From Thelocarpon superellum (lineage: Eukaryota), in the NCBI GenBank assembly GCA_026025795.1, contig JAPEUG010000031.1:1-64000 (forward strand): DNA of 64,000 bases, read 5' to 3'. Positions 54,844 to 57,420 of the stretch are shown here, in pieces (within the stretch, counting starts at the first letter, position 1; each line of letters opens with the position of its first letter). Below the pieces are notes generated by a model, which saw only the letters and a program-made list of their open reading frames with translations, did not search any database and was not told the origin of the DNA. The position numbers and the translations under genes are program-made.

Positions 54844-56280
54844 TCACTCCCCTCCCGATGCGTTTCCATGTCCATGCCCACCCCCATTTCCACTCCCACG
54901 CACCACCCCCACCCCCCACTCCATTTCAGACTTCAACCACTGCTTATCGTCCGCGGAAATCTTGTAGTCCGTGACGCCGCCGAGGAAGCGGAGTTCGTCG
55001 AGCGTGTTGATCTGGACCAGCACGTCCACGAACTGCTGATGGTACCGCGTGAAATGCTGGCGGCCATTGACGCCCAGACAGAGGCGCTTGAGGTTACCGT
55101 AGCGCCCGAGGAGGCGGAGGCAGTGGCGCAGGTGAGGATCACGCACGTATTGCCGTTCGGCGTGCGTGAGCTCCTTGCTGGTGATGGGCCGGGCGTCTTC
55201 GAGAATCAGGATGAGGCTGGTGATCTGGGACAGGTTGCGCGGCCCAATGGTCACCAGGAACCGTTCCATGTCCTTGTACCCGATCTCGCGCCACACGTTC
55301 TCGTAGAACTGTCCGCGCGTCCAGGCCACCCGCTCGAAGTGGAAGCGGTTCTCGCCATACAGCACCGTCGAGCCCTCGCGGCTGATCTGCTTGCAGGTGG
55401 AGAGCAGCGCGGCGGAGTGGCAGAGGTTCTCGCGCATGTGGAAGTTGATGGTCTTCTTGCTGGTGAATACCAGTCGGTAGATGGCGTTGCGGAGCTCGGC
55501 GGGCAGGTTGAGGAAACCCAGTCGTCGACCGGAGTCGTTGCGCTGTGGCTTCTTGGCTTTATCCAGTGGAGGATTGGTGGACGGCTTGCCTGGCGCGGCA
55601 TTGGTGGTCGCCTCGGGCTCGTCGCTCAGCACGTGGGGCAGATCGAGATGGACGACAAAGGGTCCGTGGTGGCCGCGAGGGACGGCAAACGTCAATTGGA
55701 CCGGCTGCACGGGTCGCGTCGACTTGGCTCGCGCAGTGCTTCGGCTTCCAGGAGGGGGCGACGGCGTACGGCCTGGGGTGCCGGCGTAGTCGGATAATGC
55801 GGCGGGAGAGGGAGATAGGTCGCCTCGAGCTCGTCGTTGTCGCTCAACTGCAGTGCGACGTTTAGCTCTCTTCGATCGCTGGCTTGGGCTCTCATGGTCG
55901 CAGTCACTCTCGACCGACGACAACGATCGTCTACGTTTGGAGGACCTTCCTCGGCCAGCCCCCTCGACACTGTCCTCGCCGTCCGAGCTCGAGTCCACCC
56001 ACGCGGTCGAGTCGAGATAGCCCATCAATGCCAGATCCCTCCTGCCGGCGGATTTGCGTATCGGTCGGCCCGTCACCTCATTGACCTCGACATCTTCCAC
56101 CCCTGGCCTCGGCGTGTCGGCCCGACTAGGCCCCGCGTTGGCCGCCTTGGACTGGCCCCCGTGTGGCAGCGGCTTGTTGGGACGCGGCGGCTTCATGCCA
56201 GCCAAACGCTTGCGCGCCGCTTTGGAGTAGCCCGTGGTCGTCGCCGCCGTCTTGCAGGATGACTGCTTGGTCCGGGCCAT
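54844..56280 (-). CDS. 478-aa uncharacterised protein: histone-H3-tail-like N-terminus, disordered basic/acidic region, C-terminal F-box-like fungal domain
   Basis: Starts [11 protein letters not shown]...[9 protein letters not shown]. NLS-like SKRRR and KRAKRR. Contains [13 protein letters not shown] and [24 protein letters not shown]. Predicted 5'UTR intron 56338-56282. Confidence 0.85.
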   Translation of the reverse strand: [478 protein letters not shown]

Positions 56281-57420
56281 GCTGTGACCCAGATGATGAG
56301 AAACGATGGAGGCTGAGCGTCATTTGCATGGGACTCACCTTTGAGGAGTCGATTCGACCCCCCGGAGACGTTGTCAAATGGACCACATCACGAACGATAG
56401 ATGTGCTCACAAGTCAATACAGAGAAGCTCGAAATGCTACCACTGCTTTGGCGGTGGAGTATGAAAGACAGTCTGGGTGGGCACGATAGATGAAAGACCA
56501 AACGATTGTGGGAAGATGAAACAGTCGACGCTAGAACAGCTCGTCTAGTCGCCTGTCGCTCTCATGGACAGTGTTCATAGCAGTACTTAGTTGGACTTCT
56601 TAGTCCCACGTGTCCCGTATCATCTTTGGACCGGGCAGTGTCCGCGTGAGGCTTGGGACGTAGAAGTCGTCGCTTGTTGTCCGACGCCTGGTCAAAATGG
56701 AGATCGATGCACGTCAGATGCACCGAAGCAACGTCGAGCTGGCTGAATGGATCTCATGGCACGTAGAAGATGCTTGGCACATCAAAGTCTGGTATGAACT
56801 TGCTCTACAGCGACATGTCAAAGGCGAATAGGGCGGAATTTCCGGCTGAACATGACAGTTCATTTCCCATCACACACTACCTATATGAGATGTGTCGTCC
56901 GCGATACGATCTCGCATGATGGACTCAAATCATTCGGCACAAGAACTTTCGTGGATAAGATAAGGAGACATGTCAACTAGAAGATGTCATTCTTGGGGCA
57001 TCACCTCTGGGTGTGACCGACCAACACAACAATCCAATCAGGTACTCTCAAATTGTTTCTCAAGGGTGGTGAAGCGGACCCGAAACATGTCAACATCGCC
57101 CACATCAGCGTCGCCGAAGCTCCACCGACATGAGTGCTGTAGCTGCCGTATAGGCCGTCTCATCATCTTGGATTTAGTTGTGTGAAGACGAAAAAGACGT
57201 CGCGTCGGGTGCTGTTCGTCAAAGTTCAACACCGAGTGGATCGTCGCACGTGAGCGAGCTTACCGATTCGAGCAAGGGTGGGTTTGCGAGAGATTCCATG
57301 TGGGGTGGGGGAAATGCATGACGGCACATACTCTGGCATATATCGCGCGGCACCACGTCCGCTGATTACCCTCTCTTCGATTGTTCGAATTGGGGGCAGT
57401 CTCCCACACTCCTTGACACC

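What the first reader, a model, noticed from the sequence alone, without database searches (positions are those of the whole stretch)
54844..56338. Histone H3 tail mimic at the true N-terminus of an F-box-like nuclear protein
Seen: the ORF begins [27 protein letters not shown]. After Met removal, residues 1-5 (ARTKQ) match H3 exactly, Lys sits at position 9 with Thr at 10 (H3 has K9-S10), and [12 protein letters not shown] blends H3 [11 protein letters not shown] with fungal H3 SKAARKS. A 57-nt GTGAGT..CAG intron (56338-56282) ends 1 nt before the ATG. After splicing, an in-frame TGA (56376-56374) lies upstream with no in-frame ATG between, so this should be the real start. There is no histone fold; instead there are NLS-like clusters and an F-box-like FLxLPxELRxxIY domain. 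Established: PHD fingers, Set1/COMPASS and LSD1-type enzymes read the H3 ARTK N-terminus, and histone mimics are known (influenza NS1, G9a). Inference: this could be a decoy or bait that is modified by, or captures, H3K4/K9 writers and readers and may couple them to SCF ubiquitination. I do not recognise this as a described fungal system.
Basis: partly seen in the sequence, partly recalled or inferred. Interest (0 to 1): 0.8.

Follow-up and report, generated by a model that had tools for sequence, protein, structure and literature searches.

The report
Histone-H3-like start on a fungal protein
A lichen-fungus gene for a nuclear-looking protein begins with the same five residues as histone H3, and a related start recurs in its relatives in several fungal lineages, so it may be a conserved histone-tail look-alike, which no experiment has yet tested.

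Summary
Window 54844-56280 (-) is a 478-aa ORF starting [28 protein letters not shown], with the described 57-nt GTGAGT..CAG segment and upstream in-frame stops. It is the Thelocarpon superellum protein M1838_002943.

It belongs to a fungus-specific DUF7730 family. The family has a long disordered N-terminal half with conserved short motifs and a confident alpha/beta, LRR-like C-terminal domain.

The H3-like start is not a one-off. 11 of 220 full-length family members start M(x)RTK, plus 3 at an internal Met, against 0.33 expected from shuffles. They lie in at least four lineages.

K9, KAARK and the long tail occur only in T. superellum, and its closest relatives P0003 and P0004 lack the motif.

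F-box membership is only weakly supported.

Best reading (about 0.4): a conserved N-terminal short linear motif that copies H3 residues 1/2-5 and docks in a pocket made for the H3 N-terminus.

Main rival (about 0.3): a generic basic N-terminal import signal.

SCF coupling is untested.

The parts
54844..56280 (-). Coding sequence, 478 aa plus stop (P0001). It is the same gene as NCBI M1838_002943 of Thelocarpon superellum.
56197..56280 (-). Codons 1-28, the H3-like N-terminal tail [28 protein letters not shown]. It is followed by a second Met (M29).
   Evidence: Disordered, pLDDT 37-41.
56263..56277 (-). Codons 2-6, ARTKQ, identical to H3 residues 1-5.
   Evidence: The H3 1-ARTK-4 is as printed in PMC7060239 and PMC5677370.
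56200..56226 (-). Codons 19-27, [15 protein letters not shown] equals H3 22-27 of the yeast peptide, and KA.RK.LA matches H3 14-21.
   Evidence: Comparison by eye with the peptide printed in PMC5677370.
56282..56338 (-). Putative 57-nt 5'-UTR intron (GTGAGT..CAG). It holds two out-of-frame upstream ATGs.
   Evidence: Splicing itself was not tested.
56374..56376 (-). TGA, in frame with the start if the 57-nt segment is spliced out.
56320..56322 (-). TGA, in frame with the start in the unspliced reading, 13 codons upstream.
56038..56073 (-). [12 protein letters not shown] (residues 70-81), the family's best conserved motif in the disordered half.
   Evidence: G71, R72, P73 and R75 are nearly invariant in A1. 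pLDDT 71-79.
55924..55944 (-). Basic cluster SSKRRRS (residues 113-119), NLS-like.
55825..55878 (-). Basic cluster [18 protein letters not shown] (residues 135-152). Its end aligns with the family's KRKR-SPSP motif.
55848..55907 (-). 60-nt in-frame GTGACT..CAG segment that the NCBI model removes as an intron (20 aa fewer).
   Evidence: P0001 compared with P0002; sequence.
55642..55695 (-). [18 protein letters not shown] (residues 196-213), a conserved motif of the family.
   Evidence: P201, G206 and P207 are nearly invariant. pLDDT 79-87.
55465..55521 (-). [19 protein letters not shown] (residues 254-272), the F-box-like / DUF7730 / 2EXR signature.
54916..55533 (-). C-terminal alpha/beta, LRR-like domain (about residues 250-455).
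   Evidence: Domain model has mean pLDDT 90 and pTM 0.83. Fold searches.

Best explanation
This is a real gene for a member of a fungus-specific DUF7730 family. The protein has about 250 disordered N-terminal residues carrying conserved short motifs, followed by a folded LRR-like domain.

The family's extreme N-terminus is a short linear motif, M-(A/P/none)-R-T-K-(Q/K/P). In T. superellum it reads ARTKQ after the expected removal of Met. That processing is inferred from the small second residue and was not tested.

I think the exposed x-R-T-K-Q end most likely docks into a pocket that evolved for the histone H3 N-terminus. Candidates are an RbAp46/48-type WD40 surface, a PHD finger or an LSD1-type cleft. 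The animal SNAG, PAF15 and FOG1/SALL4/BCL11A N-termini work this way. Docking would recruit the protein to, or make it compete with H3 for, a chromatin or histone-handling factor. The C-terminal domain would supply a second binding surface.

Shown here: the sequence, the start context, the recurrence of the motif, the disorder of the tail and the fold class of the domain.
Inferred: Met removal, a free N-terminus, any binding, and nuclear location.

The longer H3 resemblance (K9, SKAARKRLA) is specific to this species and may only add an H3-type import signal.
For: 1. ARTKQ is at the first in-frame ATG after in-frame stops, and the NCBI model uses the same start.
2. The motif recurs. 11 of 220 full-length family proteins start M(x)RTK, plus 3 at an internal Met placed where the others start. 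Shuffles give 0.33 expected, and 0 of 5000 shuffles reach 11.
3. These proteins lie in Thelocarpon, Candelariaceae (3 proteins, MRTK[PK]SHSSAS), a Teratosphaeriaceae-type clade (MARTKQ/S/P, and MPRTKQ in Hortaea) and a Mycosphaerellaceae-type clade (MPRTKK in Cercospora and Lecanosticta, and MARTKQ in P0255). One-substitution neighbours are MAKTKQ, MARMKQ, MPRTTK and MAPTKKQ.
4. The residues after the motif diverge, and a non-basic Thr is kept, which argues for specific recognition.
5. ARTK, ARKS or ARKT occurs in the first 25 residues of 17 of 208 members, against 1.14 expected.
6. The tail is disordered, as short linear motifs and histone tails are.
7. There is precedent. SNAG N-termini mimic the H3 tail for LSD1, and P2 and R3 are required (PMC5066116 passages). 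The PAF15 H3-like N-terminus binds the UHRF1 PHD finger (PMC7060239 passages). FOG1, SALL4 and BCL11A bind RBBP4 where H3 binds (PMC10679446 passages).
Against: - Only about 5-6% of family members carry (x)RTK.
- The closest relatives of the window protein lack it: P0003, P0004, P0039 and P0095.
- Position 1 varies between A, P and a retained M, so a strict free-Ala1 reader cannot explain the whole family.
- 126 of 220 members start M[AP], 44 of 220 fit M[AP]x(1-3)[KR][KR], and 16 of 220 start M[ASPG]P[KR]. The common denominator may therefore be just a basic N-terminus.
- The shuffle controls ignore relatedness, and the tree needs 8 state changes for 11 carriers.
- phmmer found no H3 similarity.
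- There are no expression, N-terminomics, localisation or binding data.
- Starts of unannotated metagenome proteins may be wrong.
Confidence: 0.4

Rival explanations
1. The N-terminus is a generic basic patch or nuclear import signal, and the identity to H3 is incidental. It would work through importins, or through charge contacts with DNA or acidic surfaces, not through H3 readers. In T. superellum the SKAARKRLA...K segment would act as an H3-type karyopherin signal.
For: - The family start is basic and position-specific. 44 of 220 members fit M[AP]x(1-3)[KR][KR], against 4.9 expected. 52% of 139 members have at least 3 K/R in residues 2-13.
- Many members read like classical import signals (MPPKRKA, MPRTKKQKRNN).
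- H3 1-28 is itself an import signal bound by Kap123 through K14 and K23. The consensus is small-K-small-(X)>=6-K (PMC5677370 passages).
- Importins bind H3 11-27 and 35-40 (PMC7752055 passages).
- The window protein has S-K-A followed by a Lys nine residues on (read by eye).
Against: - The protein already has two strong basic clusters, and the family has a nearly invariant KRKR-SPSP motif, so an extra N-terminal signal is not needed.
- A pure charge or import function does not explain retention of Thr in R-T-K, or the fixed position right after Met in four lineages.
- The Kap123 consensus is only loosely met, with Ser rather than Gly or Ala before the Lys.
Confidence: 0.3
2. The protein is an SCF substrate receptor whose H3 decoy tail captures H3K4/K9 writers or readers, or is modified by them, and hands them to ubiquitination.
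For: - The LPxELRxxIY...TCKQ pattern resembles an F-box.
- The best fold hits include F-box-LRR proteins solved with SKP1/ASK1: 4i6j_B, 9kkx_C, 5hzg_B, 3ogl_B and 6vcd_B.
- 7 of 72 family members give weak F-box-like_2 hits.
- Some public records name homologues 'F-box domain-containing protein'.
Against: - No fold hit reaches E<=0.001, and TM is <= 0.36.
- P0001 gives no Pfam F-box hit.
- The family profile finds no F-box chain in the PDB; the best hit is E 0.41 and unrelated.
- The K9 context lacks the Arg before Lys and is not conserved.
- No Skp1 test was possible.
Confidence: 0.1
3. The extended H3 resemblance of the T. superellum tail has no function. It is chance in a K/A/R/T-rich low-complexity extension, or a decaying relic of a captured H3 5' fragment.
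For: - The first 45 residues have no counterpart in the nearest relative; the BLAST alignment starts at residue 46.
- They have no counterpart in any family N-terminus: best score 34, against a null median of 35.
- KAARK in the first 30 residues arises in 1993 of 2,000,000 shuffles. That is not rare once about 220 family members and about 23 possible H3 five-mers are allowed for (my estimate).
- phmmer sees no H3 similarity.
Against: - ARTKQ itself is explained by the family-conserved motif, not by chance.
- By eye, 14 of the 21 first H3 residues are matched with two insertions.
- ARTKQ and KAARK never occurred together in 2,000,000 shuffles.
Confidence: 0.12
4. The tail is not translated. The real start is M29 (MKPPRPNKP...) or lies elsewhere, so there is no H3-like N-terminus in the cell.
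For: - No transcript or peptide evidence exists.
- M29 resembles the basic start of P0004 (MKKPKATRP...).
- The 57-nt intron has no clear branch-point match (my reading).
Against: - The first ATG has A at -3 and G at +4, and is the first ATG after in-frame stops.
- The NCBI model uses it.
- The same motif stands at the annotated start of 10 other family proteins.
- M1 is nearly invariant in the alignment.
Confidence: 0.07

Closest known systems
SNAG domain of Snail/Gfi1/Insm1, an H3-tail mimic that binds LSD1
   Same: The motif is at the extreme N-terminus of a non-histone nuclear protein. It starts with a small residue followed by Arg, and has a second basic pair a few residues on. P2, R3, S4, F5, R8 and K9 are needed for LSD1 binding (PMC5066116 passages). 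The fungal MPRTKQRK and MARTKQ.K starts have the same layout.
   Different: SNAG is found in animals only and is attached to zinc-finger repressors. It has Phe where H3 and this family have Lys. No binding was tested here, and the attached domain is DUF7730.
PAF15 H3-like N-terminus bound and ubiquitylated by UHRF1
   Same: A disordered protein whose N-terminal residues bind a PHD finger in the H3 1-ARTK-4 mode, with affinity like H3 (PMC7060239 passages). The similarity reaches beyond the first four residues to later lysines, as in the T. superellum tail.
   Different: Here the mimic is on the putative adaptor protein itself, not on a substrate.
FOG1 / SALL4 / BCL11A N-terminal basic motif that binds RBBP4/7
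   Same: N-terminal basic peptides bind the acidic top of the WD40 propeller at the position where histone H3 binds (PMC10679446 passages). RbAp46/48 homologues are, from recall, universal in fungi, so this is the most transferable partner.
   Different: Those motifs are built around an RRK core, whereas this family has R-T-K. No fungal example is known to me, and nothing was tested.
Histone H3 tail as a karyopherin (Kap123/Importin-4) import signal
   Same: H3 1-28 is a bipartite lysine signal (PMC5677370 passages; PMC7752055 passages). The T. superellum segment [15 protein letters not shown] resembles H3 11-27.
   Different: The consensus is only loosely met. The import-relevant part is not conserved in relatives, whereas the conserved part (residues 1-5) is not the importin-binding part of H3.
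   Same: Short ARK/ART-type motifs in non-histone proteins.
   Different: From recall, those are not N-terminal and depend on lysine methylation in an ARK(S/T) context. The window protein has Cys before K9, and its AARK is followed by Arg.

Membership tests
Histone H3 (histone-fold protein) | Histone-fold domain after the tail | tested here: not met
   Pfam gives only DUF7730 and 2EXR. The AlphaFold2 model shows disorder followed by an alpha/beta LRR-like domain.
Histone H3 (histone-fold protein) | N-terminal ARTKQ after Met removal | tested here: met
   The H3 residues are as printed in PMC5677370.
N-terminal H3 mimics (SNAG / PAF15 / FOG1 type) | Motif at the true N-terminus, with a small second residue that allows Met removal | tested here: met
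   It is the first ATG after in-frame stops and matches the NCBI start, with Ala at position 2. The processing itself was not testable.
N-terminal H3 mimics (SNAG / PAF15 / FOG1 type) | Motif conserved among orthologues while flanking residues diverge | tested here: inconclusive
   11 of 220 members, plus 3 at an internal Met, carry M(x)RTK in at least 4 lineages, against 0.33 expected. Most members and the nearest relatives lack it.
N-terminal H3 mimics (SNAG / PAF15 / FOG1 type) | Binds a protein that binds the H3 N-terminus | not testable with these tools
F-box proteins (SCF substrate receptors) | Match to an F-box sequence profile | tested here: not met
   P0001 hits no F-box model at E<=1. 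7 of 72 family members give weak F-box-like_2 hits, best E 0.01. The family profile against PDB sequences finds no F-box chain.
F-box proteins (SCF substrate receptors) | Three-helix F-box followed by repeats, with a fold similar to solved F-box proteins | tested here: inconclusive
   Three helices (residues about 261-272, 290-293 and 297-310) precede beta-alpha repeats. The best hits are F-box-LRR and other LRR proteins, but 0 hits reach E<=0.001 and TM is <= 0.36.
F-box proteins (SCF substrate receptors) | Binds Skp1 | not testable with these tools
   There is no fungal Skp1 in the window, and the complex tool's reference set covers only bacteria, archaea and phages.
DUF7730 (PF24864) | Profile match above Pfam's gathering score | tested here: not met
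   P0001 scores 23.4 bits against a cut-off of 27, E 4.1e-5.
DUF7730 (PF24864) | Full-length homology to proteins that carry the domain | tested here: met
   72 of 72 aligned members hit DUF7730 at E<=0.1. Many homologues carry a precomputed PF24864 hit. phmmer E-values run from 1e-77 to 1e-30 for 117 representatives.
Kap123-type H3 import signal | small-K-small-(X)>=6-K consensus (PMC5677370) | tested here: inconclusive
   By eye, the sequence reads S-K20-A, then nine residues, then K29. The residue before the Lys is Ser, not Gly or Ala. No binding test was done.

The most novel reading that the evidence does not exclude
A fungal protein family (DUF7730, F-box/LRR-like) carries a histone H3 N-terminus decoy that has been kept since before the split of Dothideomycetes and lichen-forming lineages. 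The decoy plugs into an H3-tail pocket of a chromatin enzyme or chaperone complex. It thereby recruits, inhibits or ubiquitylates that complex, as a fungal counterpart of SNAG-LSD1 joined to a ligase adaptor. In T. superellum the decoy has grown into a 26-residue H3(1-21)-like tail that could itself be written and read like a histone tail.
Probability: 0.12. Interest if true: 0.8.

Novelty: new member of a known kind. Interest (0 to 1): 0.55.

Why it matters
N-terminal histone H3 mimicry is so far known from animal regulators (SNAG factors, PAF15, FOG1/SALL4/BCL11A). A conserved fungal example on an uncharacterised family would give DUF7730 its first functional handle.

It would also provide a natural peptide probe for fungal H3-N-terminus binders. 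If the C-terminal domain proves to be an SCF adaptor, it would link histone-tail recognition to ubiquitylation.

The motif occurs in culturable species (Hortaea werneckii, Cercospora beticola, Lecanosticta acicola), so the idea can be tested directly. I found nothing in print:
- The search for 'DUF7730' / '2EXR' listed 15 papers, none of which contains DUF7730.
- The search for 'histone mimic' + fungi + F-box found 0 papers.
- The search for 'histone H3 mimic' / ARTK gave no fungal case among the 20 listed titles.

Tried and rejected
- phmmer of residues 1-45 and 1-28 against all PDB chains gave no H3 hit at E<=10. Short anchored motifs are below what database statistics can detect, so this does not decide the question.
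- ESM Atlas search with residues 1-45 gave no usable hit.
Organism names for unannotated hits therefore stayed unknown.
- A search for short proteins sharing the tail, meant to bring an H3 sequence into the session, needed max_evalue > 10. It was rejected as out of range and was not re-sent.
- As a result, no tool-held H3 sequence was available and no computed pairwise alignment or shuffle test against H3 was run. The 14-of-21 count is by eye against the peptide printed in PMC5677370.
- There is no H3 gene in the window.
- Alignment of the 30-residue tail against all family N-termini found nothing above the shuffled null.
- The family profile against PDB sequences found nothing relevant.
- No complex prediction was run because no partner sequence was available.
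No DNA of orthologous loci could therefore be inspected to verify their start codons.
- I considered an AT-hook reading of TGRPIRK. I did not pursue it, because the AlphaFold2 model gives that motif raised confidence next to the folded domain.
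Full report
**What is in the window**

On the minus strand, 54844..56280 is an uninterrupted ORF of 478 codons.
- It begins [32 protein letters not shown].
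- The 57-nt GTGAGT..CAG segment (56338-56282) ends 1 nt before the ATG.
- The in-frame TGA at 56376-56374 applies if that segment is spliced out.
- Without splicing, another in-frame TGA at 56322-56320 lies 13 codons upstream with no ATG between.
- Two out-of-frame ATGs (56329, 56323) lie inside the 57-nt segment and would open an overlapping upstream ORF. Their removal by splicing is an indirect argument that the intron is real.
- The start codon has A at -3 and G at +4.
- A public NCBI model uses the same start: P0002, 'MAG: hypothetical protein M1838_002943 [Thelocarpon superellum]'. It differs only by removing a 60-nt in-frame GTGACT..CAG segment, 55907-55848.
- No transcript or peptide data could be consulted, so the start is well supported but not proven.

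**What the protein is**

- Pfam gives weak hits to DUF7730 (E 4.1e-5, 23.4 bits, below the cut-off of 27) and 2EXR (E 0.01) at residues 256-303. There is no histone or F-box model.
- Homologues are plentiful. A word-indexed search found 37. Among the 50%-identity representatives, 448 have E<=0.001, 228 have E<=1e-10 and 117 have E<=1e-30.
- Named homologues are Dothideomycetes and lichen-forming fungi.
- All 72 aligned members hit DUF7730 at E<=0.1, 53 hit 2EXR, and 7 hit F-box-like_2 weakly.
- The alignment (A1) shows a common plan, in this order:
  1. a short basic N-terminus;
  2. S[SP]ELGdGdF;
  3. [16 protein letters not shown];
  4. an acidic run;
  5. KRKR-SPSP;
  6. LxFNVPxGxxGPxVVxLD;
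  7. GFxxLPxELRNxIYRxxF, followed by about 200 residues.
- AlphaFold2 with this alignment leaves residues 1-250 disordered, except around 61-80 and 190-215, and folds 250-455 confidently.
- The domain alone has mean pLDDT 90 and pTM 0.83.

**Is the domain an F-box?**

- Foldseek against the PDB found no match at E<=0.001, either for the whole model or for the domain model.
- The best matches are LRR-type solenoids. They include F-box-LRR proteins solved with SKP1/ASK1: 4i6j_B (E 5e-3 and 1e-2), 9kkx_C, 5hzg_B, 3ogl_B and 6vcd_B (TM 0.36). They also include NLRC4, NLRP1 and tropomodulin/leiomodin.
- The family profile finds no F-box chain among PDB sequences; the best hit is E 0.41 and unrelated.
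- 'F-box/LRR-like' is therefore a reasonable description of the fold class. Membership of the F-box family is not shown, and Skp1 binding could not be tested.

**Is the H3-like start more than chance?**

- Shuffling residues 2-60 puts ARTKQ first in 27 of 2,000,000 trials. KAARK falls in the first 30 residues in 1993 trials. Both together occur in 0 trials.
- More telling is recurrence in relatives. A search seeded with the Meristemomyces homologue P0018 returned 94 proteins at E<=1e-20, mostly Mycosphaerellales.
- In these, the 11-14 residues between the Met and SSELG often read M[AP]RTK[QK]:
  - MARTKQ in P0037, P0204 and P0255;
  - MARTKS and MARTKP in P0018 and P0038, at an internal Met that sits where the other proteins start;
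  - MPRTKQ in Hortaea werneckii (P0183, P0191, P0238);
  - MPRTKK in Cercospora beticola (P0193), Lecanosticta acicola (P0058) and P0199.
- One-substitution neighbours occur too: MAKTKQ (Salinomyces), MARMKQ (Dothistroma), MPRTTK (Sphaerulina), MAPTKKQ (Septoria) and MAKSKQ.
- Of 67 proteins with an S.ELG-type motif and a Met 8-30 residues upstream, 11 read M[AP]RTK, 5 MARTK and 3 MARTKQ.
- A search seeded with P0003 added three Candelariaceae proteins starting MRTK[PK]SHSSAS: Candelaria pacifica, Candelina submexicana and P0012.
- Over all 220 held proteins with a full N-terminal region, 11 start M(x)RTK and 3 more have it at an internal Met. The shuffled mean is 0.33, and 0 of 5000 shuffles reach 11.
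- ARTK, ARKS or ARKT occurs in the first 25 residues of 17 of 208 members against 1.14 expected. Eight of the 17 form one Aureobasidium-type clade of the tree (MAPVTKARK-type starts; P0245 is named Aureobasidium pullulans).
- On a FastTree of the C-terminal domain, the carriers sit in a Mycosphaerellaceae-type clade, a Teratosphaeriaceae-type clade and with Thelocarpon. The tree needs 8 state changes for 11 carriers among 98 rows.
- This pattern fits an old motif that has often been lost, or repeated gain.

**Results against the reading**

- The shuffle controls do not correct for relatedness.
- Only about 5-6% of members carry the motif.
- The nearest relatives of the window protein do not have it: P0003, P0004, P0039 and P0095.
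- BLAST of P0001 against P0004 only starts at residue 46.
- No family N-terminus resembles the 30-residue tail; the best score is 34 against a null median of 35.
- The family start is more generally M[AP] (126 of 220) followed by basic residues. 44 of 220 fit M[AP]x(1-3)[KR][KR] against 4.9 expected. 16 of 220 start M[ASPG]P[KR] against 1.9 expected.
- Rows dropped before these counts:
  - P0002, which is the same gene as P0001;
  - proteins that do not start with M;
  - proteins with fewer than 100 residues before the LPxELR motif. This removed P0191 and P0197, both of which carry MPRTK.

**The longer resemblance to H3**

The yeast H3 1-28 peptide is printed in the Fig. 2 legend of PMC5677370 (passages read) as [27 protein letters not shown]. 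I compared it by eye with the window protein, and the peptide was not entered into any tool.
- H3 1-10 aligned with residues 1-10 of the Met-less protein gives 6 identities (ARTKQ and K9).
- After a 4-residue insertion, TG matches TG.
- After one more inserted residue, KAARKRLA matches KAPRKQLA at 6 of 8 positions.
- In total, 14 of the 21 first H3 residues are matched.
- Alternatively, SKAARK equals H3 22-27 at 6 of 6 positions.
- This part is not conserved in any relative, and it lies in a K/A/R/T-rich stretch.
- With about 220 family members and many possible H3 five-mers, it could be chance. That is my estimate from the 1e-3 figure.
- R8 of H3 is Cys here, so K9 is not in an ARKS-type context.
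- phmmer found no H3 similarity in the PDB.
- I therefore treat residues 1-5 as the solid, conserved part and the rest as species-specific and uncertain.
- H3 1-28 is a Kap123 import signal read through K14 and K23. Importins bind H3 11-27 and 35-40 (PMC7752055 passages). The simplest role for the [9 protein letters not shown]..K segment is therefore import.

**How it most likely works**

- The conserved element is x-R-T-K-(Q/K) at the very start of a disordered region. x is Ala or Pro, or the Met is retained before Arg.
- Met removal with Ala or Pro is expected from general knowledge of methionine aminopeptidase and was not tested.
- A kept Thr inside a basic motif, at a fixed position after Met, points to a specific pocket rather than charge alone.
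- Known pockets for exactly this sequence are those that hold the histone H3 N-terminus.
- Animal proteins use the same trick:
  - SNAG N-termini mimic the H3 tail in the LSD1 cleft, with P2, R3, S4, F5, R8 and K9 required (PMC5066116 passages).
  - The H3-like N-terminus of PAF15 binds the UHRF1 PHD finger about as well as H3 (PMC7060239 passages).
  - FOG1, SALL4 and BCL11A bind RBBP4 where H3 binds (PMC10679446 passages).
- I give about 0.4 to this reading for the fungal family.
- I give about 0.3 to a plain basic or import function.
- I give about 0.12 to the extended tail being functionless.
- I give about 0.07 to a wrong start.

**Novelty**

- Searches for DUF7730 / 2EXR returned 15 papers, none of which contains DUF7730.
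- The search for 'histone mimic' + fungi + F-box returned 0 papers.
- The search for 'histone H3 mimic' / ARTK showed no fungal case among the 20 listed titles.
- If real, this is a new, fungal member of the known class of N-terminal H3 mimics, on an uncharacterised domain family.

**What stayed unchecked**

- DNA of orthologous loci.
- A computed alignment to H3.
- Any binding partner.
- Supplementary files of the cited papers were not consulted. All five cited papers were read as passages only.

Noticed in passing
window 55848-55907 (-): A 60-nt in-frame GTGACT..CAG segment is removed as an intron in the NCBI model (P0002 is 20 aa shorter). If retained, it encodes part of the RSKRAKRR basic cluster. 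P0004 has a gap at this place in the BLAST alignment.
   Followed up: partly
window 56321-56329 and 56374-56388 (-): There are upstream ATGs. Two out-of-frame ATGs lie inside the putative 5'-UTR intron and open an ORF that overlaps the main start (listed as 56126..56410). A 4-codon upstream ORF (ATG at 56388) ends at the TGA at 56376-56374.
   Followed up: partly
window about 54683-54710 (-): A short CTGG tandem repeat (about 7 units) lies downstream of the stop codon, probably in the 3' UTR.
   Followed up: no
window 54847-54897 (-), residues 462-478: A Gly/His-rich C-terminal tail ([17 protein letters not shown]) has no counterpart in the aligned homologues.
   Followed up: no
window 56038-56073 and 55642-55695 (-); alignment A1: Two motifs of the disordered half are nearly invariant in the family: [12 protein letters not shown] and [18 protein letters not shown]. 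They have raised AlphaFold2 confidence (71-87), so they may pack on the C-terminal domain. The S[SP]ELGdGdF motif of most relatives is missing in T. superellum.
   Followed up: partly
family proteins, e.g. P0069, P0100, P0114, P0174: 16 of 220 family members start M[ASPG]P[KR], against 1.9 expected from shuffles. This is the canonical X-P-K motif of alpha-N-terminal methyltransferases (recalled). It is a second chromatin-related type of N-terminus in the same family.
   Followed up: partly
window 11934-15497 (-), 15969-18827 (+), 39689-44357 (-), 44765-51865 (+), 53936-54610 (+), 58079-59233 (+): The neighbouring genes are housekeeping genes: oxoprolinase/hydantoinase, a PXA-PX sorting nexin, DEAH-helicase fragments, GCN1, ribosomal protein L19e and serine hydroxymethyltransferase. 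Nothing chromatin-related was found next to the gene.
   Followed up: partly
P0197, P0251, P0252, P0262: Some source names look odd for clear family members. They are 'Quercus suber' (probably fungal DNA in a plant assembly), 'thermostable 8-oxoguanine DNA glycosylase' and 'DNA-binding protein'.
   Followed up: no
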